Source: a virus (Duplodnaviria > Heunggongvirae > Uroviricota > Caudoviricetes). From it: DNA of 23,452 bases. The stretch lies in IMG/VR virus record IMGVR_UViG_2609460346_000013; one strand, 5' to 3'. Shown piece by piece: positions 1,466-23,452 of this stretch (position 1 is the stretch's first letter; each line of letters opens with the position of its first letter). Under the pieces are notes generated by a model. That model had not been told where the DNA came from. It searched no databases and was given only the letters and a program-made list of their open reading frames with translations. Position numbers and translations under genes: made by a program.

Positions 1466-1753
1466 ATGAGGGTACCATATATGGACGCTGAAAATTATGT
1501 GATTCAGTATCCGCTGGACGCGGTTCATGTGGATAAATTTGCTGATTTATTAGGGAAGCCAAAGACAGCCGTCAGTGAAATGGTGAAGGCAAATAAATTA
1601 CCAATTATTGAATTACGTGATCCTTGCAAACCGAAGGCTCGTGCCGGTGAAAAATGGGTTTTCATTCCTGAGTTTAATCGCGCTGTACGTGAGGCGTTTT
1701 ATAACCGACCGGTTGAACAGCGTGATGCATGGCTTTTGTGGATGGGGTTGTGA
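1466..1753 (+). CDS. cox: Cox-like excisionase / early transcriptional regulator (95 aa; start could be the internal Met at 1481)
   Basis: First gene of the rightward early operon, divergent from C. Size and position match P2 Cox. Weak AAAGGG ribosome-binding site upstream. Confidence 0.65.
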   Translation: MRVPYMDAENYVIQYPLDAVHVDKFADLLGKPKTAVSEMVKANKLPIIELRDPCKPKARAGEKWVFIPEFNRAVREAFYNRPVEQRDAWLLWMGL

Positions 1754-1755
1754 TT

Positions 1756-1926
1756 ATGAATGAGCCGCGTTGTATTGCTCAGTTATTGCGTAACGAAAGC
1801 CCCAGGGTGATTGACTTCACCATCACCCACGGGAAGGGACGCAAGGGAATCATTATCCGCACCAAAAAACAGAGTCCGTTAAAGAAGGCTCTGACCTTTC
1901 TGAAAAGCCGGAGGGTCTGGAAATGA
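1756..1926 (+). CDS. Small early-operon hypothetical protein (56 aa from MNEPRC)
   Basis: Its stop overlaps the B start in an ATGA junction (1923..1926), suggesting translational coupling. Basic, lysine/arginine-rich. No recognised domain. Confidence 0.45.
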   Translation: MNEPRCIAQLLRNESPRVIDFTITHGKGRKGIIIRTKKQSPLKKALTFLKSRRVWK

Positions 1927-2423
1927 CAGTGATGACGCTTAATCTCGTTGAAAAACAGCCAGCAGCTATGCGCCGGATAATTGGTAAGCATCTGGCCGTC
2001 CCTCGCTGGCAGGATACATGTGATTATTATAATCAGATGATGGAACGCGAACGGCTAACAGTTTGCTTTCATGCGCAGTTAAAACAACGTCATGCAACGA
2101 TGCGTTTTGAAGAAATGAACGACGTCGAACGTGAACGGCTGGTTTGTGCAATTGATGAATTGCGTGGGGCATTCTCAAAACGCCGTCAGGTTGGCGCAAG
2201 TGAGTATGCATATATTAGTTTTTTAACAGTCAGTCAGCGTCGTACTTTATTTATGCATGCCGGATTGACTGAAAAAGAATTCAACCAGCCATACTGGCGA
2301 ATTAATGAAGAGTCATGTTACTGGCGTGATGCTTTATTCCGTGCATTACGTGAATTATTCAGCCTGTTTGAGTATGCACCGACAATTCTGACGTCGGTAA
2401 AACCAGAGCAATATCTGCATTAA
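1923..2423 (+). CDS. B: Replication protein B-like (166 aa)
   Basis: GGAGGG ribosome-binding site about 10 nt upstream. Length identical to recalled P2 gpB and position between cox and A is as in P2. Confidence 0.75.
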   Translation: MTVMTLNLVEKQPAAMRRIIGKHLAVPRWQDTCDYYNQMMERERLTVCFHAQLKQRHATMRFEEMNDVERERLVCAIDELRGAFSKRRQVGASEYAYISFLTVSQRRTLFMHAGLTEKEFNQPYWRINEESCYWRDALFRALRELFSLFEYAPTILTSVKPEQYLH

Positions 2424-2486
2424 ATAATTAACCAGAGTTTTAAACGCACTTAATCGTGCGGGGCTTCTTTTTGCCTGGAGAAAGTC

Positions 2487-2711
2487 ATGCATACAGTTTC
2501 TGAAAATCAGTGCGGTAAATACGCATTACTGCTGCAACAGGCCAGAACCGAAGCACAGGCTGACGCTGCGACGCGCTTTTCTTCTCATCTTGACGCCATG
2601 ATTCGCCATATCACAAAGGCGGAGTTATCCCGCGTGGAGATAGTCGAGCTACTCAGTCAGGAGTCGGAAAAATTTCACAATATCGGATTGTCTCGCGGGG
2701 AGGTGCTTTGA
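2487..2711 (+). CDS. Hypothetical early protein (74 aa)
   Basis: GGAGA ribosome-binding site upstream. Stop overlaps the next start (TGATG). Position corresponds to the small ORFs between B and A in P2. Confidence 0.55.
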
Positions 2712-3010
2712 TGTCCTGTTCTCATTCAGTTGTATTACTGAATAACGCCTTAAAAATCGCCGTTATGAAAAATGGCGATTTGTCTCTTATCCAACTTTGT
2801 CTTGATAAAGAAAAACGCGACATCACTGAATCTGTTATCGCGATTTATCAGAGCGAATTAAACCTCCTGTCTGATGTGATCAATTTACTTGTGAAACGCG
2901 CTGTATTCCACAAGCAAATTTCCTCAGTGGATGAACTGACAAAATTAACGACAGAACTCGCCAGTTATTGCGCTGATGTATCCAGGAAACTTAACGATAA
3001 AAGGAGCTGA
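2711..3010 (+). CDS. Hypothetical early protein (99 aa)
   Basis: ATG at 2711 overlaps the preceding stop, continuing the coupled early operon. Confidence 0.55.
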   Translation: MSCSHSVVLLNNALKIAVMKNGDLSLIQLCLDKEKRDITESVIAIYQSELNLLSDVINLLVKRAVFHKQISSVDELTKLTTELASYCADVSRKLNDKRS

Positions 3011-3012
3011 TA

Positions 3013-3237
3013 ATGCCGGACAACGTAGATTTTATTCAGGAACAACAGGCTGAATTACTGGAGCGCCAGATTAACGCGGCAAGGGTAAAACATTGCGGTG
3101 TTTCTTCGCTGGTTTGCGAAGAGTGTGACGCTCCAATACCTGCTGCCCGTCGTGCGGCTTATCCGTCAGCCACGCGTTGTGTTTCCTGTCAGTCAGTCTT
3201 TGAAGCAAAAAACAAACATTACCGGAGAACGGCATGA
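3013..3237 (+). CDS. DksA/TraR-type C4 zinc-finger protein (74 aa)
   Basis: Perfect AAGGAG ribosome-binding site. CxxC-x17-CxxC motif (CEECDAPIP...CVSCQ) typical of TraR/DksA-family phage proteins. Confidence 0.7.
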   Translation: MPDNVDFIQEQQAELLERQINAARVKHCGVSSLVCEECDAPIPAARRAAYPSATRCVSCQSVFEAKNKHYRRTA

Positions 3238-3509
3238 GTATTCGTATTGAAATTGGCGAACGTTATGTCGTTACCAGTGACAGCTTTCAGTTTATTCTCC
3301 ACGAGAAAAAGAGAGCGGAAAGCGGTAAAAACGCCGGTCAGGAATGGCTGGCGGTGGTTGGTTATTACCCGAAATTAAGCCAGCTCGTTTCCGGCCTGAT
3401 GCATCACGATATTCTGACCGGAAGCGCAAAGTCTTTTGCTGATTTAAACGGGCAGGTTGAGCAACTCAGCAAGCGTTGTTCAGAGGCTTTTGGCTCATAT
3501 GGCCGTTAA
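3234..3509 (+). CDS. Hypothetical early protein (91 aa)
   Basis: ATGA overlap with the preceding gene. Its 3' end overlaps the A start by 11 nt. Confidence 0.55.
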   Translation: MSIRIEIGERYVVTSDSFQFILHEKKRAESGKNAGQEWLAVVGYYPKLSQLVSGLMHHDILTGSAKSFADLNGQVEQLSKRCSEAFGSYGR

Positions 3510-5778
3510 AGCCTCCGGGCGTTTTGTCCCTCCGTCAGCATTTGCCGCAGGCACCGGTAAGACGTTTACCGGTGCTTATGCATGGAACGCGCCACGCGAG
3601 GCCGTCGGGCGCGAAAGACCCCTTACACGTGACGAGATGCGTCAGGTGCAAGGTGTTTTATCCACGATTAACCGCCTGCCTTACTTTTTGCGTTCGCTGT
3701 TTACTTCACGCTATGACTACATCCGGCGCAATAAAAGCCCGGTGCACGGGTTTTATTTCCTCACATCCACTTTTCAGCGTCGTTTATGGCCGCGCATTGA
3801 GCGCGTGAATCAGCGCCATGAAATGAACACCGACGCGTCGTTACTGTTTCTGGCAGAGCGTGACCACTATGCGCGCCTGCCGGGAATGAATGACAAGGAG
3901 CTGAAAAAATTTGCCGCCCGTATCTCATCGCAGCTTTTCATGATGTATGAGGAACTCTGCGATGCCTGGGTGGATGCCCATGGCGAAAAAGAATCGCTGT
4001 TTACGGATGAGGCGCAGGCTCACCTGTATGGTCATGTTGCTGGCGCTGCACGTGCTTTCAATATTTCCCCGCTCTACTGGAAAAAATACCGTAAAGGACA
4101 GATGACCACGAGGCAGGCATATTCTGCCATTGCCCGCCTGTTTAACGATGAGTGGTGGACTCATCAGCTTAAAGGCCAGCGTATGCGCTGGCATGAGGCG
4201 TTACTGATTGCTGTCGGGGAGGTCAATAAAGACCGTTCTCCTTATGCCAGTAAACATGCCATTCGTGATGTGCGTGCACGCCGCCAGGCAAATCTGGAAT
4301 TTCTTAAATCGTGTGACCTTGAAAACAGGGAAACCGGCGAGCGCATCGACCTTATCAGTAAGGTGATGGGCAGTATTTCTAATCCTGAAATTCGCCGGAT
4401 GGAGCTGATGAACACCATTGCCGGTATTGAGCGTTACGCCGCAGCAGAGGGTGATGTGGGGATGTTTATCACGCTGACCGCGCCGTCAAAGTATCACCCG
4501 ACACGTCAGGTCGGAAAAGGCGAAAGTAAAACCGTCCAGCTAAATCACGGCTGGAACGATGAGGCATTTAATCCAAAGGATGCGCAGCGTTATCTCTGCC
4601 ATATCTGGAGCCTGATGCGCACGGCATTCAAGGATAATGATTTACAGGTCTACGGTTTGCGTGTCGTCGAGCCACACCACGACGGAACGCCGCACTGGCA
4701 TATGATGCTTTTTTGTAATCCACGCCAGCGTAACCAGATTATTGAAATCATGCGTCGCTATGCGCTCAAAGAGGATGGCGACGAAAGAGGAGCCGCGCGA
4801 AACCGTTTTCAGGCAAAACACCTTAACCGGGGCGGTGCTGCGGGATATATCGCGAAATACATCTCAAAAAACATCGACGGCTATGCACTGGATGGTCAGC
4901 TCGATAATGATACCGGTAGGCCGCTGAAAGACACAGCTGCGGCTGTTACCGCATGGGCGTCAACGTGGCGCATTCCGCAATTTAAAACGGTTGGTCTGCC
5001 GACAATGGGGGCTTACCGTGAACTACGCAAATTGCCTCGCGGCGTCAGCATTGCTGATGAGTTTGACGAGCGCGTCGAGGCTGCACGCGCCGCTGCAGAC
5101 AGTGGTGATTTTGCGTTGTATATCAGCGCGCAGGGCGGGGCAAATGTCCCGCGCGATTGTCAGACTGTCAGGGTCGCCCGTAGCCCGTCGGATGACGTTA
5201 ACGAGTACGAGGAAGAAGTCGAGAGAGTGGTCGGCATTTACGCGCCGCATCTCGGCGCGCGTCATATTCATATCACCAGAACGACGGACTGGCGCATTGT
5301 TCCGAAAGTGCCGGTCGTTGAGCCTTTGACTTTAAAAAGCGGCATCGCCGCGCCTCGGAGTCCTGTCAATAACTGTGGAAAGCTCACCGGTGGTGATACT
5401 TCGTTACCGGCTCCCACACCTTCTGAGCACGCCGCAGCAGTGCTTAATCTGGTTGATGACGGTGTTATTGAATGGAATGACCAGGAGGTCGTGAGGGCGC
5501 TCAGGGGCGCATTAAAACGAGGTCTGAGAAGACCAAACCGTCAGCAAAGAAACGGAAGCCCGTTAAAACAGCATGAAATGGCACCATCGGCCAGACTGAC
5601 CCGGTCAGAACGAATGCAAATTACCCGTATCCGCGTTGACCTTGCTCAGAACGGTATCAGGCCGCAGCGATGGGAGCTTGAGGCGCTGGCGCGTGGAGCA
5701 ATTGTAAATTACGACGGGAAAAAATTCACGTATCCAGTCGCTGATGAGTGGCGGGGATTCTCAGCAGTAATGGAGTGA
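3499..5778 (+). CDS. A: Replication initiation endonuclease A (rolling-circle initiator; 759 aa from MAVKASGRF)
   Basis: Large ORF with an HUH-type metal-binding motif (PHWHMMLF). N-terminus matches recalled P2 gpA. The longer ORF from 3457 is an upstream extension. Confidence 0.9.
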   Translation: MAVKASGRFVPPSAFAAGTGKTFTGAYAWNAPREAVGRERPLTRDEMRQVQGVLSTINRLPYFLRSLFTSRYDYIRRNKSPVHGFYFLTSTFQRRLWPRIERVNQRHEMNTDASLLFLAERDHYARLPGMNDKELKKFAARISSQLFMMYEELCDAWVDAHGEKESLFTDEAQAHLYGHVAGAARAFNISPLYWKKYRKGQMTTRQAYSAIARLFNDEWWTHQLKGQRMRWHEALLIAVGEVNKDRSPYASKHAIRDVRARRQANLEFLKSCDLENRETGERIDLISKVMGSISNPEIRRMELMNTIAGIERYAAAEGDVGMFITLTAPSKYHPTRQVGKGESKTVQLNHGWNDEAFNPKDAQRYLCHIWSLMRTAFKDNDLQVYGLRVVEPHHDGTPHWHMMLFCNPRQRNQIIEIMRRYALKEDGDERGAARNRFQAKHLNRGGAAGYIAKYISKNIDGYALDGQLDNDTGRPLKDTAAAVTAWASTWRIPQFKTVGLPTMGAYRELRKLPRGVSIADEFDERVEAARAAADSGDFALYISAQGGANVPRDCQTVRVARSPSDDVNEYEEEVERVVGIYAPHLGARHIHITRTTDWRIVPKVPVVEPLTLKSGIAAPRSPVNNCGKLTGGDTSLPAPTPSEHAAAVLNLVDDGVIEWNDQEVVRALRGALKRGLRRPNRQQRNGSPLKQHEMAPSARLTRSERMQITRIRVDLAQNGIRPQRWELEALARGAIVNYDGKKFTYPVADEWRGFSAVME

Positions 5779-6107
5779 ACGTCGCCAGTTGCGAAAATTA
5801 TTTACAGGGGGCAGCGTTAAGCATCTAAAGATCTTGTTCTATGATTAGAATGTTTCCTCGTTGCACTCTCGTATAGTTATTTAATGGGAAGATGTACTCT
5901 ATATGTTGTGTTTTGGTGATAAATGAAGCCAAAGGAAGGAGATTTTGCTTGATTGATGGGCGCTCTTTGCTATACACCTTGTATTGAGAAGGAGAAGTAA
6001 TCAAGGATTAAGCTGGCTTTTGTCAAAAATCTGAAAAGCTTTTTTGACTGAATACGATAGCGAGTTGTACTATTTGCGCCCTCAAAAGTAACCGGCGGCT
6101 GGGTAAA

Positions 6108-6482
6108 ATGGGGAAGCAAGGCAAAGGCAAAGGCAACAAAAATCAGGTTAAGGTTACGTGGGCTCAGGCGTGGCGGGATGTAATGATAAGAGCCATGTCT
6201 AATGGTCAGTTGATACCTATTACCATCAGTATTATTTTAATGATTGCTGCATGGAGGTTACCAAAAACAGACTTGTCCAATTTAGCCTTCTCTATTGTTG
6301 ATGGCTTTAAGGAGCATTCCTTGGTTGGTTGGGCTATCTCGGTAATAGTGGGTTTGGCTTGGTCTGCACATGCGCGAATCATGAGGCGCTGTTTTAGTTC
6401 CGAGGCACAGAGAATCGGTAACGAGAAAACAAAGTATCAACAAAGACAGACCACTCAAGCCTTGGGTACAAGTGATAAATAG
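6108..6482 (+). CDS. Small membrane protein with two predicted transmembrane helices (124 aa; start uncertain)
   Basis: Hydrophobic segments LIPITISIILMIAAW and LVGWAISVIVGLAW. Lies in the cargo island between A and cos. No recognised domain. Confidence 0.5.
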   Translation: MGKQGKGKGNKNQVKVTWAQAWRDVMIRAMSNGQLIPITISIILMIAAWRLPKTDLSNLAFSIVDGFKEHSLVGWAISVIVGLAWSAHARIMRRCFSSEAQRIGNEKTKYQQRQTTQALGTSDK

Positions 6483-6502
6483 TTGTTTATTTAGGAGTTA
6501 TT

Positions 6503-7060
6503 ATGCTGACAGTGCTGTTTTATGTGCTGTTGGGTTTAGGCGCAGCACACTTCATTTACGAGCGAATCATTTTGCCGTCCATCCGACTTCATTATAGAAA
6601 CCAATTGTTTGCGCTTCGTGATGTCGCTAGGAGGAAAATCATTGATGGAGGTTCCGATACTTCCATGCAAGCGGCAACACTTGTGCATGACTCATTGAAT
6701 AACGCTATCAATAGATTGCATTTACTCACGTTGCCAAACAAATTTCGTGCTCAAAAGCGTATGGCAGAAAACCATGCAATAAGGCAGAAAATTCGGCGTG
6801 AGATAGATGTTTTCAAACGCTGTGATGATAGAGAAGTTGTTGATGTACTGTTTAAATCCGGTCGGATACTTGAAAATGTACTGTTATTCAATAGCTTAAT
6901 GTTATTGCTTTACATGTTTCCATTTGTCCTTGCTGTATGGTTCTGTGTTAGGGTCATAAAGACAGCAAGTAGTTTAGTACAGTGGGTCAAAGGAAGAGAT
7001 TTAGAGGAAGCTATAATGCTGCTTCCTGATACTCAGGTTGAAAAGGTTGTATACGCATAA
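6503..7060 (+). CDS. Membrane protein with N- and C-terminal transmembrane helices (185 aa)
   Basis: AGGAG ribosome-binding site 6 nt upstream. Hydrophobic N-terminus (LTVLFYVLLGLGAAHFIY) and C-terminal helix (LLLYMFPFVLAVWFCVRVI). Followed directly by an intrinsic terminator. Confidence 0.6.
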   Translation: MLTVLFYVLLGLGAAHFIYERIILPSIRLHYRNQLFALRDVARRKIIDGGSDTSMQAATLVHDSLNNAINRLHLLTLPNKFRAQKRMAENHAIRQKIRREIDVFKRCDDREVVDVLFKSGRILENVLLFNSLMLLLYMFPFVLAVWFCVRVIKTASSLVQWVKGRDLEEAIMLLPDTQVEKVVYA

Positions 7061-7062
7061 AA

Positions 7063-7088
7063 ATCACCCCTTAGGGGGTGATTTTTTT
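7063..7088 (+). terminator. Rho-independent terminator
   Basis: 7-bp GC-rich stem (TCACCCC/GGGGTGA) with a TTAG loop, followed by a run of seven T. Confidence 0.8.
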
Positions 7089-7299
7089 ACATGACTTTTG
7101 ATTAGCTGACATTGTAAATCCGCATGTATCAGATGCATTGTTTTGCATGTGGAAATGGGTGTTTTCACTGCCAGCTATCGCTACATGTAGCAAAAACACG
7201 GGCTTAATAAGAAATCATTCTGCCATAAGGCATAACTTCCCCGCGTGCTCAGGTATTGACGTCATAGATATGGATCTTTTTTAATCAAGGTATGGTATT

Positions 7300-8247
7300 A
7301 TGAAGATATTTATTAGTTGGTCAGGTCAGGACAGCCTGGAGATAGCAAAAGTATTACGGGATTGGATACCGAATGTTATTCAAGTAGCTGAGCCGTACGT
7401 ATCAGCGGAAGATATTGATAAAGGCACTCGCTGGGCGACTGATATATCAAAGGAACTTGATGACTCTTCTTATGGGATTATTTGCCTTACAAAAAATAAT
7501 ATTAATGCACCGTGGATAAATTTTGAGGCGGGGGCTTTAGGTAAAAAGGTTGATAAGAGCCGGGTTAGTCCTTTCTTGTTTAAAATTAAACCATCTGAGA
7601 TAACAGGCCCAATATTACAATTCCAGTATACTCGTTCGGATGATAAGAACGATATTTTGAAGTTGATGTTGTCAATAAATAATCAAGCAGGATTTTTGAC
7701 TGAAGAACGCTTAACTAAAGCTTTCGAGCAATGGTGGCCAAGTTTAGAGCGTGAGTTAGATAACATTCAAGATATTAACCCTGTAGATAAAGATTCCACT
7801 AAAAAAACAAAAGGTGATTCGACTTCTGAGATACAAAATCTTTCCAAAATTGTTGAAAGTTTGCTGGATATTAGCCGAACAAATCACCAATTATTGCGTG
7901 ATCCAGCATCATTATTGCCAGAAGAATATGTTAGCAAAATAATAAACAGGGAAGGGCGTAAAGAAACTGTTTTAAAAATTGTAGCTTCTGATTTATTATC
8001 CATGCATCATTCACTAATTCGTGTAAAAAGAAGATTTATTCGTCGTGGTATTGATGAAACATCTAGGAGCGAGTTAATTGAATCATTAAATAAAATGATA
8101 ATGGATTGTTCTAGAGTAATCGCTCACTTAGATAATTATTGTGGGGCTTCATCAAACAATATGTTCAATAGTGCGCTTAGATTGCGGACCAGAAATTTAA
8201 TTGACATGATGGATGAGGAGGATGCAGAACGGGATGAAATGGAATAA
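7300..8247 (+). CDS. TIR-like domain protein with an uncharacterised C-terminal helical domain (315 aa)
   Basis: N-terminus MKIFISWSGQDS matches the TIR first-strand signature. Downstream ICLTKNNINAPWINFEAGAL fits the TIR W-x-x-E block that carries the catalytic glutamate. About 170 C-terminal residues have no recognised motif. Visibly AT-rich. Confidence 0.7.
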   Translation: MKIFISWSGQDSLEIAKVLRDWIPNVIQVAEPYVSAEDIDKGTRWATDISKELDDSSYGIICLTKNNINAPWINFEAGALGKKVDKSRVSPFLFKIKPSEITGPILQFQYTRSDDKNDILKLMLSINNQAGFLTEERLTKAFEQWWPSLERELDNIQDINPVDKDSTKKTKGDSTSEIQNLSKIVESLLDISRTNHQLLRDPASLLPEEYVSKIINREGRKETVLKIVASDLLSMHHSLIRVKRRFIRRGIDETSRSELIESLNKMIMDCSRVIAHLDNYCGASSNNMFNSALRLRTRNLIDMMDEEDAERDEME

Positions 8248-9000: not shown

Positions 9001-9918
9001 ATGGATTATACGAGCTATATAATAGGACAGCTTCAGGTTGAGGATATTATTGATGCAATTAAAGGCGTTAATAATACTAATGTCATAAAAGATTATGTGC
9101 TGCCTGTAGTATTACCAATTATATCTTCTGTGCTGAGTTACTTTATTGCAACTAGGTTGTTTTATCGGCAGGAGTACCTTAAAGCACAAAGAAGAAAGGT
9201 AAGCGTTGTAAATAAATGTATTTATGACTACTTTTCTGCAATGACAACGTTGTTGCAAATTAAAGGGAATTATTATGGTGGGGTAAGTATAAGTGAAAAT
9301 CCTATCGAGAGGGCTTTAGCTTTTCCTGTTGTGGTTTTTTCTGGTGCTCCTCTATCATCAGATTTAAGTGAGTTGGCCTGTATATTGAGTCAAAAGGGAG
9401 TAGGGAATAATAGAGAGCCAGCAAAGACTACTAACTGGGGGGATGCTTTTGCTGTTAGTGATATAGCAAGAAGGTTTAACAGCCTATTGGCTGCATTAAA
9501 TGTTAGGAATGATTTTGATGACACCTATAGAGGAATGATTATTGAATCAACAGGTTCACCTTTGCCTACGATGCGTTTTAAAAATGATGATATTGTTAAT
9601 GCTATAGGTAGTAATAAGGCAGCTTATTACATTGATATTACTGAGCAAATAATGATTATGATAGATGTTTTGTTGCTTGATATTAATCTGTTGCTCAAAG
9701 AGTTGCCATTGTATGCTGAATCGCTGTTTGACAAAAGAGTAATGCAAGAAGATTCAGGGATTCTTAAATTCAATGATTTGCACGAACGTTTTCCTCTACT
9801 TATGAAACCTGTAACGCCACCTTCGATTAAACTCATGTCTGATTATTTGGGGTACAGTGAAGATGAGATCTTACGACGCTATCCATACCCGTTCTTTAAT
9901 ATGCATGATTGTGAATGA
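9001..9918 (+). CDS. Membrane-anchored hypothetical protein (305 aa, one N-proximal transmembrane helix)
   Basis: Hydrophobic segment VLPVVLPIISSVLSYFIATRLF. Tightly coupled to the upstream lipoprotein gene. AT-rich. No recognised domain. Confidence 0.6.
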   Translation: MDYTSYIIGQLQVEDIIDAIKGVNNTNVIKDYVLPVVLPIISSVLSYFIATRLFYRQEYLKAQRRKVSVVNKCIYDYFSAMTTLLQIKGNYYGGVSISENPIERALAFPVVVFSGAPLSSDLSELACILSQKGVGNNREPAKTTNWGDAFAVSDIARRFNSLLAALNVRNDFDDTYRGMIIESTGSPLPTMRFKNDDIVNAIGSNKAAYYIDITEQIMIMIDVLLLDINLLLKELPLYAESLFDKRVMQEDSGILKFNDLHERFPLLMKPVTPPSIKLMSDYLGYSEDEILRRYPYPFFNMHDCE

Positions 9919-10198: not shown

Positions 10199-11233
10199 TC
10201 AGCCGTTGTCAGTGTCCAGTGAGTAGTTTTTAAAGCGGATGACCTCCTGACCGAGCCAGCCGTTTATTTCCCGAATCCTGTCCTGTAACGGGATAAGTTC
10301 ATTGCGGACAAAGACCTTTGCCACTTTCTCAATATCGCCCAGCGACCCGACGTTTTCCGGCTTGCCACCCATCAACTGAAAGGGGATGCGGTGCGCGTCC
10401 AGCAGGTCAGCGGCGCTGGCTTTTTTGATATTAAAAAAATCGTCCTTCGTGGCCACTTCACTGAGCGGGATAATTTTAATGCCGTCGGCTTTTCCCTGTG
10501 GGGCATAGAGAAACAGGTTTTTAAAGTTATTGCGGCCTTTCGACTTCACCATGTTTTCGCGGAGCATTTCGATATCGTTGCGATCCTGCACGGCATCAGT
10601 GACGTACATGATGTATCCGGCATGTGCGCCGTTTTCGTAATACTTGCGGCGGAACAGCGTGGCCGACTCATTCAGCCAGGCAGAGTTAAGGGCGCTGAGA
10701 TATTCCGGCAGACCGTACAGCTCCTGATTAATATCCGGCTCCAGCAGGTGAAACACGGAGCCGGGCGCGAAAGGTGTCGGCTCGTTGAAGGACGGCACCC
10801 ACCAGTAAACATCCTCCTCCACGCCACGGCGGGGATATTTTGCCGGTGAGGTTTCCAGTCTGATGACCTTACCGGTGGTGCTGTAACGCTTTTCCAGAAA
10901 CGCATTACCGAATACCAGAAAATCCAGCACAAAGCGGCTGAAATCCTGCTGAGAAAGCCACGGGTGTGGGATAAACGTTGAGGCCAGAATGTTACGTTTG
11001 ACGTAAATCGGTGAGCTGTGATGCACGGCAGCACGCAGGCTTTTTGCCAGACCGGTAAAGCTGACTGGTGGCTCATACCATCTGCCGTTACTGATGCACT
11101 CGACGTAATCCAGAATGTCACGGCGGTCGAGTACCGGCACCGGCTCACCAAAGGTGAATGCCTCCATTTTCGGGGCGCTGGCGGTCATTTTTTTTGCCGC
11201 AGGTTGCGGTGTTTTCCCTTTTTTCTTGCTCAT
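10199..11233 (-). CDS. Q: Portal protein, P2 gpQ-like (344 aa)
   Basis: Length identical to recalled P2 gpQ, with the lysine-rich MSKKKGKTPQPAAK N-terminus. Lies next to cos and is divergent from the lysis and tail genes. Confidence 0.9.
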   Translation of the reverse strand: MSKKKGKTPQPAAKKMTASAPKMEAFTFGEPVPVLDRRDILDYVECISNGRWYEPPVSFTGLAKSLRAAVHHSSPIYVKRNILASTFIPHPWLSQQDFSRFVLDFLVFGNAFLEKRYSTTGKVIRLETSPAKYPRRGVEEDVYWWVPSFNEPTPFAPGSVFHLLEPDINQELYGLPEYLSALNSAWLNESATLFRRKYYENGAHAGYIMYVTDAVQDRNDIEMLRENMVKSKGRNNFKNLFLYAPQGKADGIKIIPLSEVATKDDFFNIKKASAADLLDAHRIPFQLMGGKPENVGSLGDIEKVAKVFVRNELIPLQDRIREINGWLGQEVIRFKNYSLDTDNG

Positions 11234-11740
11234 CAGTAAAACTCCAGAATGGTGGATGTCAGCGGGGTGCTGATACCGGCGGTGAGTGGCTCATTTAACA
11301 GGGCGTGCATGGTCGCCCAGGCGAGGTCGGCGTGGCTGGCTTCCTCGCTACGGCTGGCCTCATAGGTGGCGCTGCGTCCGCTGCTGGTCATGGTCTTGCG
11401 GATAGCCATGAACGAGCTGGTGATGTCGGTGGCGCTGACGTCATATTCCAGACAGCCACGGCGGATGACGTCTTTTGCCTTGAGCACCATTGCGGTTTTC
11501 ATTTCCGGCGTGTAGCGGATATCGCGTGCGGCGGGATAGAACGAGCGCACGAGCTGGAACACGCCGACACCGAGGCCGGTGGCATCAATTCCGATGTATT
11601 CGACGTTGTATTTTTCGGTGAGTTTGCGGATGGATTCCGCCTGAGTGGCAAAGTCCATGCCTTTCCACTGGTGACGCTCAAGTATTCTGAATTTACCTCC
11701 GGCCACCACCGGCGGTGCCAGCACCACGCATCCGGCGCTG
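11233..11740 (-). pseudogene. P: Terminase ATPase subunit P, C-terminal fragment only (about 165 codons; N-terminal part deleted)
   Basis: The reading frame stops overlapping the Q start as in P2, but only about 165 codons remain instead of about 590. The upstream end abuts a truncated K on the opposite strand. Confidence 0.75.
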
Positions 11741-13185: not shown

Positions 13186-13615
13186 TGCCGTCACGGTGCT
13201 GAAAACTAACCCCGATATGCTGCGGATATTCGTGGATAACGGGAGTATTGCCTCCACACTGGCGGCGTCGTTGTCATTCGAAAAGCGTTACACGCTCAAT
13301 GTCATTGTGACCGACTTTACCGGTGATTTTGACCTGCTCATCGTGCCGGTGCTGGCGTGGCTGCGGGAAAATCAGCCCGACATCATGACCACCGACGAAG
13401 GCCAGAAAAAGGGCTTCACGTTTTATGCAGACATCAACAATGACAGCAGCTTTGATATCAGTATCAGCCTGATGCTGACCGAGCGCACGCTGGTCAGTGA
13501 GGTTGACGGTGCGCTGCATGTGAAGAATATCCCGGAACCTCCGCCGCCGGAGCCAGTCAATCGCCCGATGGAGCTTTATATCAATGGTGAACTGGTGAGC
13601 AAGTGGGATGAATGA
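13148..13615 (+). CDS. R: Tail completion protein R (155 aa)
   Basis: Length and position match recalled P2 gpR. Confidence 0.8.
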   Translation: MLKPDSLRRALTDAVTVLKTNPDMLRIFVDNGSIASTLAASLSFEKRYTLNVIVTDFTGDFDLLIVPVLAWLRENQPDIMTTDEGQKKGFTFYADINNDSSFDISISLMLTERTLVSEVDGALHVKNIPEPPPPEPVNRPMELYINGELVSKWDE

Positions 13616-14060
13616 GTTTAAGCGTTTTGAAGACCGACTGACCGGACTGATTGAATCGCTGTCACCGTCTGGGCGTCGGCGACTGAGTGCAGAACTGGCG
13701 AAACGTCTGCGGCAGAGTCAGCAGCGTCGGGTGATGGCACAGAAAGCTCCGGACGGCACACCCTACGCACCACGCCAGCAGCAGAGCGCCAGAAAAAAGA
13801 CCGGTCGCGTTAAGCGAAAAATGTTTGCGAAACTTATCACCAGTCGTTTTTTGCATATCCGCGCCAGCCCTGAACAGGCATCAATGGAGTTTTACGGCGG
13901 GAAGTCACCGAAAATCGCCAGTGTGCATCAGTTCGGTCTGTCGGAAGAAACCCGGAAAGACGGTAAGAAAATTGATTATCCGGCGCGTCCTCTGCTCGGC
14001 TTTACCGGTGAGGATGTGCAGATGATTGAAGAGATTATCCTGGCTCACCTTGAGCGTTAG
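13608..14060 (+). CDS. S: Tail completion protein S (150 aa)
   Basis: ATGA overlap with R. Length matches recalled P2 gpS. Confidence 0.8.
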   Translation: MNEFKRFEDRLTGLIESLSPSGRRRLSAELAKRLRQSQQRRVMAQKAPDGTPYAPRQQQSARKKTGRVKRKMFAKLITSRFLHIRASPEQASMEFYGGKSPKIASVHQFGLSEETRKDGKKIDYPARPLLGFTGEDVQMIEEIILAHLER

Positions 14061-14090
14061 TTTTATCCAGACAGAGGCTGATGCGCAATT

Positions 14091-14125
14091 AAACATTGAG
14101 CGGCCATGCTGGTCGCTCAATGTTT
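14091..14125. terminator. Hairpin between convergent S and the antisense cargo gene (12-bp perfect inverted repeat AAACATTGAGCG / CGCTCAATGTTT); probable bidirectional terminator
   Basis: Inverted repeat read directly, with an 11-nt loop. On the minus strand it is followed by a U-rich stretch (UUUAAUU). No clean U-run on the plus strand. Confidence 0.5.
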
Positions 14126-14131
14126 AGAGGT

Positions 14132-14917
14132 TTATGAGTGATTTTTATTTGATGCTTTGTATTCTAAAACCTTCTTATTGGCGTAAAAGAATTTTGTATA
14201 TGACAGGAATATAACCAGACCTGAAGTGAAATAGACGAGGGATAGTATTAATAATGCTTTTTTGCGACTGTTATTATCTTTAATCTCCAGGCTTAACCAT
14301 TCGGAGTCCTCCTCGTTTAGCTGTAAGAGCTTATTGCAGGCGATTTCAGGAAGTGTGTCTTTTATAAATACGTTTTGCAGTCTCTTGCAATCGGCAAGGC
14401 TATAAGTTTTATTAAATTCAACTGCTTTATTTTTGAAGGATAAAAGAACTTTGTCACTATAAACATAGTACATCATGTTTTTATATGGTATGCCTATGGC
14501 ATCCCTTACTATAACGGATTGTTCGTTGTGTATGTAACATGCGAGGAGAATGTAAAAAATACTGGCCAGAATTACAATTATTGTTTTAATTATGTGTGGT
14601 GGTTTTGTTATGTCACCCCAGATGCGAGTAAGGAAAAAATACGATGTTTTTAGTTTTCCATCAATCAGTCCCTGCTGTATCATTCTCACATTTTCAATGC
14701 CTGATACATTGATTCCGTTAATTATTTTAAATAGTTGAATGTCGCGCCACTCGCGGTCAAGTCTTTTTAATTTTTTGTCTGAATATCCAAAATTGAAATA
14801 ATGTGCAATAAGCCTCATAAGGTTACTTTTACCAAAGCTAAAAAATGCTAATACTGCAAAGCTACAAAGGAAAAAAACGATTAGCCCCCACACATTAGTC
14901 ACATTATAGCTGACCAT
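14132..14917 (-). CDS. Multi-pass membrane protein, cargo gene antisense to the tail operon (261 aa)
   Basis: Strong AAGGAGA ribosome-binding site on the minus strand 8 nt before the ATG at 14917. Hydrophobic helices at the N-terminus, middle and C-terminus. Very AT-rich. Occupies the position of the antisense orf30 between S and V in P2. Confidence 0.7.
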   Translation of the reverse strand: MVSYNVTNVWGLIVFFLCSFAVLAFFSFGKSNLMRLIAHYFNFGYSDKKLKRLDREWRDIQLFKIINGINVSGIENVRMIQQGLIDGKLKTSYFFLTRIWGDITKPPHIIKTIIVILASIFYILLACYIHNEQSVIVRDAIGIPYKNMMYYVYSDKVLLSFKNKAVEFNKTYSLADCKRLQNVFIKDTLPEIACNKLLQLNEEDSEWLSLEIKDNNSRKKALLILSLVYFTSGLVIFLSYTKFFYANKKVLEYKASNKNHS

Positions 14918-15000
14918 TACGCTCTCCTTGAATGTTGTCTGGTAGTTCTACAAATGAATCCAGATAGCATAACTTTTATATATTGTGCAATCTCACATGC

Positions 15001-15636
15001 ATGAACACTCTCGCAAATATTCAGGAACTCGCGCGCGCACTGCGCAACATGATTCGCACCGGCATTATCGTCGAAACCGACCTTAACGCCGGTCGCTGCC
15101 GCGTGCAGACCGGCGGCATGTGCACCGACTGGCTTCAGTGGCTGACCCATCGCGCCGGTCGTTCGCGCACATGGTGGGCACCTTCCGTGGGGGAACAGGT
15201 GCTGATTCTGTCCGTGGGCGGTGAACTCGACACGGCGTTTGTTCTGCCGGGGATTTATTCCGGCGATAATCCCGCGCCGTCTGCGTCGGCGGATGCCCTG
15301 CATATCCGTTTCCCTGACGGGGCGGTGATTGAGTATGAACCCGAAACCAGTGCGCTCACGGTAAGCGGAATTAAAACGGCCAGCGTGACGGCTTCCGGTT
15401 CTGTTACTGCCACTGTGCCGGTGGTCATGGTGAAAGCGTCAACCCGCATCACCCTGGACACACCGGAGGTGGTCTGCACCAACAGGCTGATTACCGGCAC
15501 GCTGGAAGTGCAGAAGGGCGGGACGATGCGCGGCAACATTGAACACACCGGCGGTGAACTCTCATCAAACGGTAAGGTACTGCATACCCATAAACACCCC
15601 GGCGACAGCGGCGGCACAACCGGGAGTCCTCTATGA
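15001..15636 (+). CDS. V: Baseplate spike protein V (211 aa from MNTLANIQ)
   Basis: Length matches recalled P2 gpV. The ORF track's earlier TTG start at 14983 is unlikely. Confidence 0.85.
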   Translation: MNTLANIQELARALRNMIRTGIIVETDLNAGRCRVQTGGMCTDWLQWLTHRAGRSRTWWAPSVGEQVLILSVGGELDTAFVLPGIYSGDNPAPSASADALHIRFPDGAVIEYEPETSALTVSGIKTASVTASGSVTATVPVVMVKASTRITLDTPEVVCTNRLITGTLEVQKGGTMRGNIEHTGGELSSNGKVLHTHKHPGDSGGTTGSPL

Positions 15637-20224: not shown

Positions 20225-20818
20225 ATGTTTACTAAGCGACGATTAAAAAATATTAACTGGGAGGCAAGTTCAGTGATTCTTGCTATGGTTCTCTTTGTTG
20301 GAAATATATTTTATACAAATCATCGTGATGATATAAGCATGGAGGCTGAGAGGGACAGTATCAGAACAATGTTTGCATATGAAATCGCTAATAACCATCG
20401 CGCTCTCACTTTTCTTGATAAAACGAGACATATTGGCTTTGACGAAAATTCGGAGCATTTTGTTGGCGAGCCTTTTGCCATTAATGTCAAATCATTAGGG
20501 GGACCTCGCTTACAGATTGCATTAAACCAGACTGATAAAGTGTTTAAATCCTACTTCGGCGAATTAAGTAAGCTTGATAAAGAGGATGTTACTCTTCTTA
20601 TGGACTATTACCATGAGCAAAGCATCCTGCTGGAGCGTGTAAAATCTACGTTACAGAAGATGAAAAGTGGTAATGATATTAAAGTTGATATTGATGGTTG
20701 CTTATTAGAAGAACACTTCATGAATGAGCTTAATCTTTCTAATATTTTGCTTAAACGCTATAGCTATTTATTATCACAACACGCTAAGGAACATAAAACA
20801 AAAGATTTACATAATTGA
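20225..20818 (+). CDS. N-terminally membrane-anchored hypothetical protein (197 aa), cargo gene at the P2 Z/fun position
   Basis: AAGGTG ribosome-binding site. One N-terminal hydrophobic helix (SSVILAMVLFVGNIFY), then a soluble domain with no recognised motif. AT-rich. Confidence 0.6.
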   Translation: MFTKRRLKNINWEASSVILAMVLFVGNIFYTNHRDDISMEAERDSIRTMFAYEIANNHRALTFLDKTRHIGFDENSEHFVGEPFAINVKSLGGPRLQIALNQTDKVFKSYFGELSKLDKEDVTLLMDYYHEQSILLERVKSTLQKMKSGNDIKVDIDGCLLEEHFMNELNLSNILLKRYSYLLSQHAKEHKTKDLHN

Positions 20819-21148: not shown

Positions 21149-21262
21149 ATGAGTGACTATCATCACGGCGTGCAGGTGCTGGAGATTAACGACGGCACCC
21201 GCGTCATTTCCACCGTATCCACAGCCATTGTCGGCATGGTCTGCACGGCTAGCCTCCCGTAA
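21149..21262 (+). pseudogene. FI: Tail sheath FI, N-terminal 37-codon remnant
   Basis: [35 protein letters not shown] matches the recalled P2 FI N-terminus, then runs into a stop after two more codons. Confidence 0.75.
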
Positions 21263-22468: not shown

Positions 22469-22549
22469 ATCCTCAATTTGCCTGCTGCTTAATGCATTGC
22501 AGATGATTTGCTTCCGTTATACTACCGTCAGTTGATAGCGGGAGTATTT

Positions 22550-23452
22550 ATGAATCAATCTTATGGACGGCTGGTCAGTCGGGCGGCGATTGCTGCGACG
22601 GCGATGGCTTCGCTGCTATTGCTGATTAAAATTTTTGCATGGTGGTATACCGGGTCGGTGAGTATTCTCGCCGCGCTGGTGGATTCGCTGGTGGATATCG
22701 GCGCGTCGTTGACGAATTTACTGGTGGTGCGATATTCCCTGCAACCTGCCGACGATAATCACTCGTTTGGTCACGGTAAAGCTGAGTCCCTCGCGGCGCT
22801 GGCGCAAAGTATGTTTATCTCCGGTTCGGCACTATTCCTGTTTTTGACGGGTATTCAACATCTGGTATCTCCAACACCGATGACAGATCCAGGCGTCGGG
22901 GTTATCGTGACAATTGTGGCGCTAATTTGTACGATTATCCTTGTCTCGTTTCAGCGTTGGGTGGTGCGCCGGACGCAAAGCCAGGCGGTGCGGGCTGATA
23001 TGCTACATTACCAGTCTGATGTTATGATGAACGGCGCAATTCTGCTGGCGCTGGGGTTGTCCTGGTACGGCTGGCATCGCGCCGATGCTCTGTTTGCATT
23101 GGGGATCGGCATCTATATTTTATATAGCGCGTTACGCATGGGATATGAGGCGGTACAGTCATTACTGGATCGCGCATTGCCTGATGAGGAACGGCAAGAA
23201 ATTATTGATATCGTGACTTCCTGGCCGGGTGTTAGCGGCGCTCACGATCTTCGCACGCGGCAGTCAGGGCCGACCCGCTTTATTCAGATTCATTTGGAAA
23301 TGGAAGACTCTCTGCCTTTGGTTCAGGCACATATGGTGGCGGATCAGGTAGAGCAGGCTATTTTACGGCGTTTTCCGGGATCGGATGTGATTATCCATCA
23401 GGACCCCTGTTCCGTCGTACCCAGGGAGGGTAAACGGTCTATGCTTTCATAA
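22550..23452 (+). CDS. fieF: Cation diffusion facilitator family Fe/Zn efflux transporter FieF (YiiP), 300 aa
   Basis: Starts [35 protein letters not shown] and carries the CDF signature with multiple transmembrane helices. Matches the enterobacterial FieF sequence as I recall it. GGGAG ribosome-binding site upstream. The stop is the last codon of the window. Confidence 0.9.

What the first reader, a model, noticed from the sequence alone, without database searches (positions are those of the whole stretch)
14132..14917. Antisense AT-rich membrane protein gene inserted between tail genes S and V
A 261-aa multi-pass membrane protein is encoded on the opposite strand inside the otherwise co-directional late operon, with a strong ribosome-binding site of its own and a hairpin shared with S. 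It is among the most AT-rich genes in the window. P2 carries an antisense accessory ORF (orf30) at this position, so this is a second cargo locus, plausibly expressed from the prophage in the lysogen.
Basis: partly seen in the sequence, partly recalled or inferred. Interest (0 to 1): 0.6.

Follow-up and report, generated by a model that had tools for sequence, protein, structure and literature searches.

The report
Phage P2 orf30: known orphan cargo gene
The antisense AT-rich gene between tail genes S and V is bacteriophage P2's long-known, dispensable orf30, a three-pass membrane protein of untested function that sits in a swap site where related prophages carry anti-phage defence genes.

Summary
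An intact 261-codon ORF lies at 14132-14917 on the minus strand, with an AAGGAG ribosome site and a strong hairpin shared with S. At 34% GC it is the most AT-rich gene in the window.

It is not merely like P2 orf30. It is orf30: 258/261 residues match the P2 protein, which GenBank annotates as 'nonessential'.

It is variable cargo. About 27% of close P2-like prophages carry it, about 65% have an empty 66-bp S-V gap, and the rest carry other AT-rich antisense genes.

New here:
- Orf30 belongs to a small enterobacterial family, with about 25 full-length representatives and a remote sub-threshold link to Pfam DUF6216.
- Members diverged to 20-35% identity still sit antisense in the S-V gap of divergent P2-like phages.
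- The predicted topology is N-out/C-in, with a conserved cytoplasmic helical domain and a periplasmic domain holding a conserved cysteine pair.
- No fold match was found in the PDB or the viral structure library BFVD.
- In a sister clade the S-V gap carries AbiU, PARIS, TIR and other defence genes.

The best guess is an envelope-acting phage-exclusion protein. That is inference only. No promoter was found and no phenotype is known.

The parts
14132..14917 (-). orf30 coding sequence (261 aa, stop codon included). Predicted three-pass inner-membrane protein.
   Evidence: ORF listing. 258/261 residues identical to P2 Orf30 AAD03281. PHROG 2407 at 2.7e-147. Hydropathy. dN/dS 0.46 and 22/22 copies intact. 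AlphaFold model with pLDDT 87.4.
14924..14929 (-). Shine-Dalgarno sequence AAGGAG, 6 nt upstream of the ATG.
   Evidence: Read directly from the sequence.
14089..14127 (.). Hairpin between the convergent S and orf30 genes. Annotated in P2 as the putative terminator of the O operon. Usable on both strands.
   Evidence: Fold energies of -26.8 and -21.3 kcal/mol, z about -6.7. P2 annotation 9397-9433 transferred with an offset of 4693.
14932..14959 (+). Ogr (late activator) binding site of the V-operon promoter. It begins 15 nt from the orf30 start codon on the other strand.
   Evidence: P2 feature 10239-10266 transferred by offset, at 98% DNA identity. An ACACAAC-type core is kept next to the start of divergent orf30 homologues.
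14061..15000 (.). The whole exchangeable S-V interval (940 bp): terminator hairpin, orf30, and the V promoter region.
   Evidence: In relatives it is replaced by an unrelated 66-bp interval, or by 1040-bp and 1256-bp cassettes. The break points lie exactly at the S stop and the V ATG.
13608..14060 (+). Conserved flank: tail completion gene S.
15001..15636 (+). Conserved flank: baseplate spike gene V.

Best explanation
SHOWN
- The gene is bacteriophage P2 orf30.
- It is a dispensable, horizontally exchanged single-gene cassette occupying the S-V gap of a P2-like prophage of E. coli.

PREDICTED
- It encodes an inner-membrane protein with three anchoring helices.
- The N-terminus faces the periplasm.
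- A conserved, positively charged helical domain (residues about 29-107) faces the cytoplasm.
- A beta-sheet-plus-helix domain (about 130-220), stapled by a conserved cysteine pair, faces the periplasm.
- A lysine-rich tail faces the cytoplasm.

INFERRED
- It is a prophage-borne protective gene that acts at the cell envelope against other phages.
- It would work either by blocking genome entry (superinfection exclusion) or by sensing infection at the membrane and aborting it.
- The antisense orientation and the bidirectional hairpin would insulate it from late transcription.
- Its start abuts the Ogr site of the V promoter, so it would be made when that late promoter is silent (lysogeny) and be interfered with when late genes fire.
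For: Identity and cargo status:
- 98% DNA and 99% protein identity to P2 orf30, annotated 'nonessential'.
- The orf30 interval occurs at 483 places in E. coli complete genomes, against 1798 places for gene S.
- Among 79 IMG/VR loci with near-identical S, the gap is empty in 51, holds orf30 in 21, and holds other antisense AT-rich genes in 7.

It is a real, constrained gene:
- 22/22 copies are intact and dN/dS is 0.46. The loops score 0.26-0.31 and the TM1 region about 1.

Topology across 25 family representatives:
- Net charge is +5.0 for loop 1, +2.0 for the C-tail, -0.8 for the N-terminus and -0.2 for loop 2.
- Loop 2 has at least two cysteines (mean 2.04) in 25/25 sequences.
- A confident model (pLDDT 87.4, pTM 0.76) shows the same layout.

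Arms-race signature:
- Homologues at the same site are only 24-34% identical, while the flanking V is 64-84% and R 73-80% identical.
- All homologues are 30-35% GC in 49-58% GC flanks.
- One locus has two tandem paralogues.

Guilt by location:
- In a sister clade, 39 of 73 S-V gaps hold about 34 different cargo families.
- These include AbiU, AriA/AriB (PARIS), ThsB-like TIR, AIPR, putAbiC and several PADLOC candidate systems.
- One family member lies next to a P2 Q-type portal gene, the position of the established old/tin defence hotspot (Rousset 2022 PMC9122126; Vassallo 2022 PMC9519451).
Against: - No experimental phenotype exists. Papers in the library list orf30 only as 'unknown' (PMC3091744, PMC2771037).
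- There is no hit to any of 5027 PADLOC models for Orf30 or 24 relatives. The only listed match is one relative to HamA at E = 0.0067.
- There is no homology to P22 SieA or HK97 gp15 (hhalign probability below 1%).
- There is no fold neighbour.
- No sigma-70-like promoter was found upstream, so expression in the lysogen is unproven.
- Hotspot residence is circumstantial. The same gap also carries a GGDEF protein, an acyltransferase-like protein and many unknowns.
- P2's three classical exclusion phenotypes were mapped to old, tin and fun, not to orf30 (background knowledge, consistent with PMC9519451).
Confidence: 0.4

Rival explanations
1. Lysogenic-conversion factor for host fitness, unrelated to phages. 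The membrane protein would alter envelope physiology, for example stress tolerance, colonisation or resistance to colicins or serum, and the prophage keeps it because it benefits the lysogen.
For: It is an AT-rich moron-type cassette in a prophage, under purifying selection. The same gap in other phages carries non-defence-looking cargo such as a MASE4-GGDEF protein and a hexapeptide acyltransferase. The gene stays intact in a prophage that has lost capsid and tail genes.
Against: Very fast divergence at a fixed site, and a tandem duplication, are more typical of conflict genes. Recognisable cargo in the gap includes several defence genes. No domain suggests an enzymatic or transport role.
Confidence: 0.2
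2. Accessory function for the phage's own cycle. Examples are modulating lysis timing, preventing re-adsorption or lysis-from-without of the producing cell, or assisting or blocking genome ejection across the inner membrane. It would be useful but not essential.
For: Seven of eleven family representatives examined sit next to the spike gene V and the tail-completion gene S in divergent P2-like phages. The start codon abuts the late promoter's activator site. It is a membrane protein with a periplasmic domain.
Against: It is antisense to all late transcription and separated from it by a terminator hairpin. It is absent from about two thirds of otherwise near-identical phages, including plaque-forming isolates. 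Family members also occur at the portal-side hotspot and outside P2-like contexts.
Confidence: 0.15
3. Functionless passenger. The gene would be selfish or decaying foreign DNA that persists only because the gap tolerates insertions.
For: No known phenotype, no detectable promoter, relatively high dN/dS (0.46), and neutral-looking transmembrane segments.
Against: 22/22 copies are intact across 19 alleles, and the loops are constrained at 0.26-0.31. The family keeps its length, topology, cysteine pair and loop-1 motif down to about 20% identity.
Confidence: 0.05
4. Essential or structural tail-assembly gene conserved with S and V.
For: Only its position among tail genes.
Against: Annotated nonessential in P2. 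The gap is empty in 51 of 79 close relatives and in viable phages such as fiAA91-ss. W-phi and L-413C lack it (PMC2771037).
Confidence: 0.01

Closest known systems
Bacteriophage P2 Orf30 (AAD03281; PHROG 2407)
   Same: 258/261 identical residues. Same antisense position between S and V, same terminator hairpin and the same V promoter context.
   Different: Three substitutions (I141T, L210Q and R218H going from window to P2). Here the gene sits in a prophage that carries two large internal deletions.
The other variable cargo loci of P2-like phages: old/tin (next to cos and Q) and Z/fun (after G)
   Same: AT-rich foreign genes at fixed gaps between conserved genes, differing between otherwise near-identical phages. 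The literature already lists orf30 as the third such region (PMC3091744, PMC2771037). This window's old/tin-position locus carries a TIR defence system.
   Different: old, tin and fun have demonstrated exclusion phenotypes, and recent screens mined those two hotspots (PMC9122126, PMC9519451, bioRxiv 10.1101/2024.10.15.618418). No function has been shown for orf30, and none of those three papers treats the S-V gap as a hotspot.
P22 SieA superinfection-exclusion protein
   Same: A membrane-protein gene transcribed antisense to the adjacent late structural genes of a temperate phage.
   Different: 164 aa against 261 aa. No sequence relationship (hhalign probability 0.3%). SieA has an annotated promoter and a proven phenotype. 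Orf30 has neither.
HK97 gp15 moron (inner-membrane exclusion protein within the tail genes)
   Same: An extra gene inserted among tail genes that encodes a membrane protein. The function cited for gp15 is superinfection exclusion (reference list of PMC11364771).
   Different: 62 aa, co-oriented with the tail operon, and no sequence relationship (hhalign probability 0.8%).
Pfam DUF6216 (PF19723)
   Same: Similar length (profile of 270). Five of 25 Orf30-family representatives match it, best E = 8.7e-7, and one covers profile positions 50-255.
   Different: The one match whose bit score was seen (21.8) is below the gathering score of 27.3. The window protein itself gives no Pfam hit even at E = 10. 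DUF6216 has no known function, so the link adds no mechanism.

Membership tests
P2 Orf30 / PHROG 2407 | Near-identity to the P2 Orf30 protein over its full length | tested here: met
   258/261 identical. PHROG 2407 at 2.7e-147 over 1-261 of 261.
P2 Orf30 / PHROG 2407 | Antisense position between S and V of a P2-like genome | tested here: met
Phage moron / hotspot cargo | Presence/absence polymorphism among otherwise near-identical phages | tested here: met
   Of 79 IMG/VR loci, 51 are empty, 21 hold orf30 and 7 hold other cargo. In E. coli genomes, 483 places against 1798 for S.
Phage moron / hotspot cargo | Base composition unlike the flanking phage genes | tested here: met
   GC of 0.34 against 0.53 and 0.60. 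Homologues are 0.30-0.35 against 0.49-0.58.
Phage moron / hotspot cargo | Own terminator | tested here: met
   Hairpin at 14089-14127, stable on both strands. The T-run is imperfect, so termination itself is not shown.
Phage moron / hotspot cargo | Own promoter active in the lysogen | tested here: inconclusive
   No sigma-70-like site on the minus strand upstream of 14917. Only weak hexamers were found by eye. No transcript data are available.
Phage moron / hotspot cargo | Dispensable for phage growth | tested here: met
   The P2 record says 'nonessential'. Isolated phages lack it. This is database evidence, not an experiment done here.
Superinfection-exclusion proteins (P22 SieA, HK97 gp15) | Sequence or profile homology to a characterised member | tested here: not met
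   hhalign probability of 0.3% (SieA) and 0.8% (gp15).
Superinfection-exclusion proteins (P22 SieA, HK97 gp15) | Inner-membrane location | tested here: inconclusive
   Three hydrophobic helices and a positive-inside charge pattern across 25 sequences. This is prediction only.
Superinfection-exclusion proteins (P22 SieA, HK97 gp15) | Blocks genome entry of superinfecting phage while adsorption is normal | not testable with these tools
   Needs plating, adsorption and DNA-entry assays.
Known anti-phage defence systems (PADLOC-DB 2.0) | Match to a defence-protein profile | tested here: not met
   No family for the window protein (E up to 10). Among 25 relatives the only listed match is HamA at E = 0.0067.
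Pfam DUF6216 | Score at or above the gathering cut-off (27.3 bits) | tested here: not met
   Window protein: no hit. Relatives: 5 of 25 match at E of 0.01 or better; the one bit score seen was 21.8. Remote relationship is plausible. Membership is not shown.

The most novel reading that the evidence does not exclude
The S-V gap would be a third anti-phage hotspot of P2-like phages, one that the three hotspot papers read here do not cover. Orf30 and its DUF6216-like relatives would be a new family of envelope-embedded exclusion or abortive-infection proteins with no detected fold relative. The family would have kept its place at this site while diverging to about 20% identity in an arms race with other phages.
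Probability: 0.3. Interest if true: 0.55.

Novelty: already known. Interest (0 to 1): 0.33.

Why it matters
The gene has been in GenBank since the P2 genome was deposited, and it has been listed as one of three variable regions of P2-like phages. Finding it in a P2-like prophage is therefore ordinary.

What remains open is its function. orf30 is the only one of P2's classical foreign loci with no phenotype.

The survey here gives concrete reasons to test it:
- It is carried by roughly a quarter of P2-type prophages, which are present in about 29% of complete E. coli genomes.
- It belongs to a fast-evolving family tied to this site.
- The site itself carries AbiU, PARIS and TIR genes in sister phages.

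A positive result would add a new membrane-acting defence family. It would also add a small, easily anchored hotspot (between Phage_tail_S and Phage_base_V genes) for mining defence genes from short contigs.

Tried and rejected
- **Domain and family searches.** For the window protein, Pfam, PADLOC and NCBIfam returned nothing. PHROGs returned only an unknown-function family.
- **Searches across 25 relatives.** These gave only sub-threshold DUF6216 matches and noise.
- **Profile search of PDB sequences.** Only a chance NDH subunit match, E = 0.036.
- **Fold searches of the pLDDT 87 model.**
  - Foldseek against the PDB had a best E of 0.089. A superficial claudin/TARP-like look at TM-score 0.15-0.2 was rejected.
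  - BFVD had a best E of 0.078.
  - The AFDB library was not available.
- **Profile comparison with P22 SieA and HK97 gp15.** No relationship.
- **Promoter scan.** Nothing upstream of orf30.
- **An Ogr-dependent promoter for orf30.** Rejected on geometry. A start 55 nt from the site centre would fall inside the coding sequence.
- **Lipoprotein signal.** Rejected. There is no lipobox around C18, and that cysteine is not conserved.
- **Word-indexed search with the family profile.** It added only Serratia, Enterobacter and E. coli 'hypothetical proteins'.
- **Literature.** No paper in the held library tests orf30. The Christie & Calendar review and Odegrip 2006 are not held.
- **Tail-assembly-interference systems (Tai, Tab).** They surfaced in literature searches and each paper was read once. 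Neither reading connected them to orf30 or the S-V gap.

Full report
**1. The observation**

- Reading the minus strand, AAGGAG lies at 14929-14924, six bases before the ATG.
- Hydropathy gives three strong 19-residue peaks, at residues 9-28, 108-129 and 221-240.
- GC is 0.34, against 0.53 for S and 0.60 for V. It is the lowest of the 22 main ORFs in the window.
- A hairpin at 14089-14127 sits between the convergent stops of S (14060) and the ORF (14132). It folds at -26.8 kcal/mol on the plus strand and -21.3 on the minus strand. The z-scores are -6.7 and -6.8, and no shuffle out of 200 did as well.

**2. Identity**

A megablast of 13600-15700 matches bacteriophage P2 over the full length at 98.1% identity. 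P2-related phages match similarly.
- In the P2 record the ORF is 'orf30, Orf30, nonessential'.
- The hairpin is the 'putative rho-independent terminator for O operon'.
- The 28 bp at window 14932-14959 are the activator (Ogr) binding site of the V promoter.
- V starts at window 15001 (offset 4693).
- The protein is 258/261 identical to P2 Orf30, and it matches PHROG 2407 (unknown function) end to end.

So this is orf30 itself, not an analogue. The flanks are two operons, not one: S ends the O operon and V opens its own.

**3. Cargo or core?**

*E. coli complete genomes.* Gene S is found at 1798 places in 1572 of 5426 genomes. The S-V interval with orf30 is found at 483 places in 464 genomes. 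That is about 27% of P2-type prophages.

*IMG/VR loci.* Among 79 loci whose S protein is at least 99% identical:

| S-V gap | Loci |
|---|---|
| 61-66 bp, empty | 51 |
| 940 bp (one of 918 bp), with orf30 | 21 |
| 1040 bp | 2 |
| 1256 bp | 5 |

The two other cassettes also hold a single antisense gene at about 34% GC. One encodes a 268-aa soluble protein. The other encodes a 357-aa protein with two C-terminal hydrophobic helices. Neither matches Pfam above noise or PADLOC.

The empty allele, as in phage fiAA91-ss, shares no similarity with either end of the orf30 allele. Similarity stops at the S stop codon and resumes at the V ATG. Whole intervals are therefore swapped, including the terminator and the V promoter region.

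Only 21 isolated phage records carry the gene, all Peduovirus. Many plaque-forming relatives lack it.

The literature already says this. orf30 is an ORF of unknown function inserted between S and V, absent from W-phi and L-413C, and the site is one of three regions where P2-like phages carry foreign genes (PMC2771037, PMC3091744, PMC6823313).

**4. A real gene under selection**

All 22 copies compared keep 261 codons without stops, in 19 alleles. Between the four divergent E. coli lineages dN/dS is 0.46, and it is uneven:

| Region | dN/dS |
|---|---|
| Loop 1 | 0.29 |
| Loop 2 | 0.31 |
| C-tail | 0.26 |
| N-terminus plus first helix | about 1.06 |
| Second helix | 0.64 |
| Third helix | too few changes to say |

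The same genomes have S at dN of about 0 and V at about 0.015, with similar dS. orf30 therefore evolves faster than its neighbours but is not decaying. The helices behave as anchors. The loops carry the function.

**5. The family**

- A word-indexed search of 5.8 billion proteins found only four E. coli clusters (98-79% identity) and one Enterobacter protein at 39%.
- An exhaustive HMMER profile search of 1.84 billion representatives found 44, of which about 25 are full length at 250-270 aa.
- The alignment keeps the three helices and a loop-1 motif, roughly D-x-Q-L-F-(R/K)-x3-G-I-N-V-x4-D-A. G68, G87, C194 and I212 are invariant.
- Named sources are E. coli, Enterobacter and Serratia, always as 'hypothetical protein'.
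- Five of 25 members match Pfam DUF6216, best E = 8.7e-7. One alignment covers profile positions 50-255 of 270 at 21.8 bits, below the 27.3-bit cut-off. The window protein itself has no Pfam hit.
- PADLOC and NCBIfam give nothing.

**6. Where the relatives live**

Of eleven representatives whose contigs I read (one search gives the identities and GC values):

*Seven are antisense in the S-V gap of P2-like phages.*
- These are the window's orf30 plus P0006, P0008, P0021, P0026, P0033 and P0041.
- At those loci V is 64-84% identical to the window's V, R 73-80%, S 47-51% and W 57-76%.
- The Orf30 relative is only 24-34% identical.
- Every relative is 30-35% GC in flanks of 49-58%.
- Locus L090 holds two tandem paralogues.

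*One is in the other established hotspot.*
- P0038 lies just downstream of a portal gene 69% identical to the window's Q. That is the position of the old/tin hotspot.

*Three are elsewhere.*
- One is beside an acetyltransferase, preceded by two 49-aa ORFs.
- One is beside a DsbA-like gene.
- One is at a contig end.

The family is mobile but strongly tied to P2-type hotspots. It diverges far faster than the structural genes around it.

**7. The S-V gap as a hotspot**

Using the V protein of L089 as bait, 73 IMG/VR loci had S and V in order.
- 34 gaps were empty.
- 39 held 800-2700 bp of 33-41% GC DNA in both orientations. The cargo proteins fell into about 34 clusters.

Scanning one representative per cluster gave these matches:
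- *PADLOC:* AbiU (2e-193), PDC-S21, ThsB-like TIR, AriA and AriB, PDC-S59, PDC-M50A, PDC-S31 and mad3. The AriA and AriB hits fit the ATPase plus DUF4435 pair at L171, which would be a PARIS system. That assignment is my reading, because the scan reports hits per family, not per locus.
- *Pfam:* AIPR, putAbiC, DUF4917, DUF4435, AAA_15/21, HipA_2, a pentapeptide/ion-channel protein, MASE4-GGDEF and a hexapeptide transferase.

The papers that mined P2 hotspots describe the old/tin and Z/fun sites, and one describes a third site near the repressor. None describes this gap (PMC9122126; PMC9519451 read; bioRxiv 10.1101/2024.10.15.618418 read). I found no paper in the held library that tests orf30.

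**8. Structure and topology**

With the 25-sequence alignment AlphaFold2 gives pLDDT 87.4 and pTM 0.76. The model contains:
- a long first helix (7-40);
- a helical domain (48-94);
- a second long helix (109-134);
- a four-stranded sheet followed by two helices (141-198);
- a very long last helix (202-260).

Across the family the charge pattern is as follows:

| Segment | Mean net charge |
|---|---|
| N-terminus | -0.8, with no Lys or Arg |
| Loop 1 | +5.0 |
| Loop 2 | -0.2 |
| C-tail | +2.0 |

Loop 2 contains at least two cysteines (mean 2.04) in 25/25 sequences, and the other segments almost never do. By the positive-inside rule, and because disulfides form in the periplasm, the topology is N-out and C-in. 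Loop 1 is cytoplasmic. Loop 2 is periplasmic and probably disulfide-bonded. This is prediction, not measurement.

**9. Expression signals**

The ribosome site is strong. The promoter is not evident.
- The scan finds nothing on the minus strand upstream of 14917.
- By eye the best candidates are about 7/12 matches.
- The Ogr site begins 15 nt from the start codon. Any promoter must therefore overlap the V promoter or lie inside V.
- Divergent homologues keep the activator-site core (ACACAAC on the orf30 strand) 10-60 nt from their starts.

An arrangement in which orf30 is transcribed when the V promoter is idle, and is interfered with when Ogr fires it, is plausible but unproven. The claim of expression in the lysogen stays open.

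**10. Most likely mechanism**

*Shown:* identity, dispensability, cargo status and selective constraint.

*Predicted:* a three-helix anchor with a conserved cytoplasmic domain and a disulfide-stapled periplasmic domain.

*Inferred:* an envelope-acting protective function for the lysogen. This would be either a block to genome entry by other phages or a membrane sensor that aborts infection.

The inference rests on four things: the arms-race pattern, the defence content of the same gap in sister phages, one relative in the old/tin hotspot, and analogy with antisense or inserted membrane-protein genes such as P22 sieA and HK97 gp15.

I put this at about 0.4. The rivals are:
- a host-fitness conversion factor (0.2);
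- a non-essential role in the phage's own cycle (0.15);
- a functionless passenger (0.05);
- an essential assembly gene (0.01).

The remainder is something not considered.

**11. Novelty and score**

The gene and its cargo nature are already known. The function is not.

The additions here are the family, its site fidelity, the topology, the lack of any fold relative, and the defence content of the S-V gap. These are leads for experiments rather than a discovery. Interest is 0.33.

**12. Context of the window**

The element is a P2-like prophage of E. coli, closest to phage P2_AC1, integrated next to fieF. It carries two internal deletions relative to P2-type phages.
- P2 coordinates 1729-7043 are missing. 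This removes most of P, all of O, N, M, L, X and Y, and the start of K. The junction is at window 11737-11740.
- A jump at about 21253 goes from the start of the tail sheath gene into gene D.
- Neither junction occurs contiguously in any of 5426 complete E. coli genomes.

The prophage cannot make virions. It nevertheless keeps all three cargo loci intact, including a TIR defence system at 6108-8247.

Noticed in passing
window 11737-11740: Deletion junction. The window matches P2 coordinates 1-1728 and then 7044 onward. Most of terminase gene P, all of O, N, M, L, X and Y, and the first bases of K are missing (about 5.3 kb). The junction is not found contiguously in any of 5426 complete E. coli genomes.
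   Followed up: partly
window about 21250-21255: Second internal deletion. The sequence runs from the start of the tail sheath gene straight into gene D and ogr, so FI (most), FII, E, T, U and part of D are absent. No complete E. coli genome has this junction contiguously. The best hit is two pieces 829 bp apart. Together with the first deletion, this makes the prophage defective. Real decay versus an assembly artefact was not resolved.
   Followed up: partly
window 6108-8247: Three genes at the old/tin-position hotspot match the PADLOC models 2TM-TIR, 1TM-TIR and TIR-TM (E from 2e-58 to 2e-118). This is likely the three-gene locus of phage P2_AC1 reported active against lambda, LF82_P8 and P2 (PMC9122126). 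That identification is inferred from the window's best match to P2_AC1.
   Followed up: partly
window 9001-9918 and 20225-20818: Two more AT-rich ORFs with no PADLOC hit: 305 aa at GC 0.356 and 197 aa at GC 0.35. The first lies beside the TIR system in the old/tin hotspot. The second lies at the Z/fun position after G.
   Followed up: no
window 22472-23452: The phage match ends just after ogr. The rest is the E. coli chromosome (fieF), present in all 5426 genomes. The ORF at 22508-23452 is therefore a host gene, not tail sheath.
   Followed up: yes
L028/L037 4453-5494; L021/L027 S-V interval: Two alternative single-gene antisense cassettes fill the same S-V gap in E. coli P2-like prophages, both at about 34% GC. 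One encodes a 268-aa soluble protein with an R-N-I-L-T-H-Q motif. The other encodes a 357-aa protein with two C-terminal hydrophobic helices. Neither has a significant Pfam or PADLOC hit. A 252-aa cargo protein in the sister clade (L169) carries a near-identical R-N-I-I-T-H-Q motif; whether the two are related was not tested.
   Followed up: partly
L094-L173 (S-V intervals): In a sister clade of P2-like phages, 39 of 73 S-V gaps carry about 34 different cargo families. These include AbiU, AriA/AriB (PARIS), ThsB-like TIR, AIPR, putAbiC, DUF4917, HipA-like and a MASE4-GGDEF protein. The three P2 hotspot papers read here do not describe this gap as a defence hotspot.
   Followed up: partly
L090 6001-6771 and 6900-7658: Two tandem, same-strand paralogues of the Orf30 family sit next to gene V.
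   Followed up: no
L178 75-2135: An Orf30-family member (P0038) lies directly downstream of a portal gene 69% identical to the window's Q. This is the other (old/tin) hotspot, so the family moves between P2 hotspots.
   Followed up: partly
L086-L088 (about 630-1770): Outside P2-like contexts, an Orf30-family gene is preceded by two co-oriented ORFs of about 49 aa and followed by a convergent GNAT acetyltransferase. The meaning is unknown.
   Followed up: no
window 14061-15000 compared with L002 762-827: The orf30-bearing and empty alleles have unrelated sequences for both the O-operon terminator and the region upstream of V. Each allele therefore brings its own version of the late V promoter's upstream region.
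   Followed up: partly
window 14132-14917 (codons 1-28 and 108-129): The transmembrane segments evolve almost neutrally (dN/dS about 1.06 and 0.64), while both soluble loops are constrained (about 0.3). AT-richness is kept in all homologues even at 20% protein identity. That suggests low GC is maintained rather than a leftover of recent transfer.
   Followed up: partly
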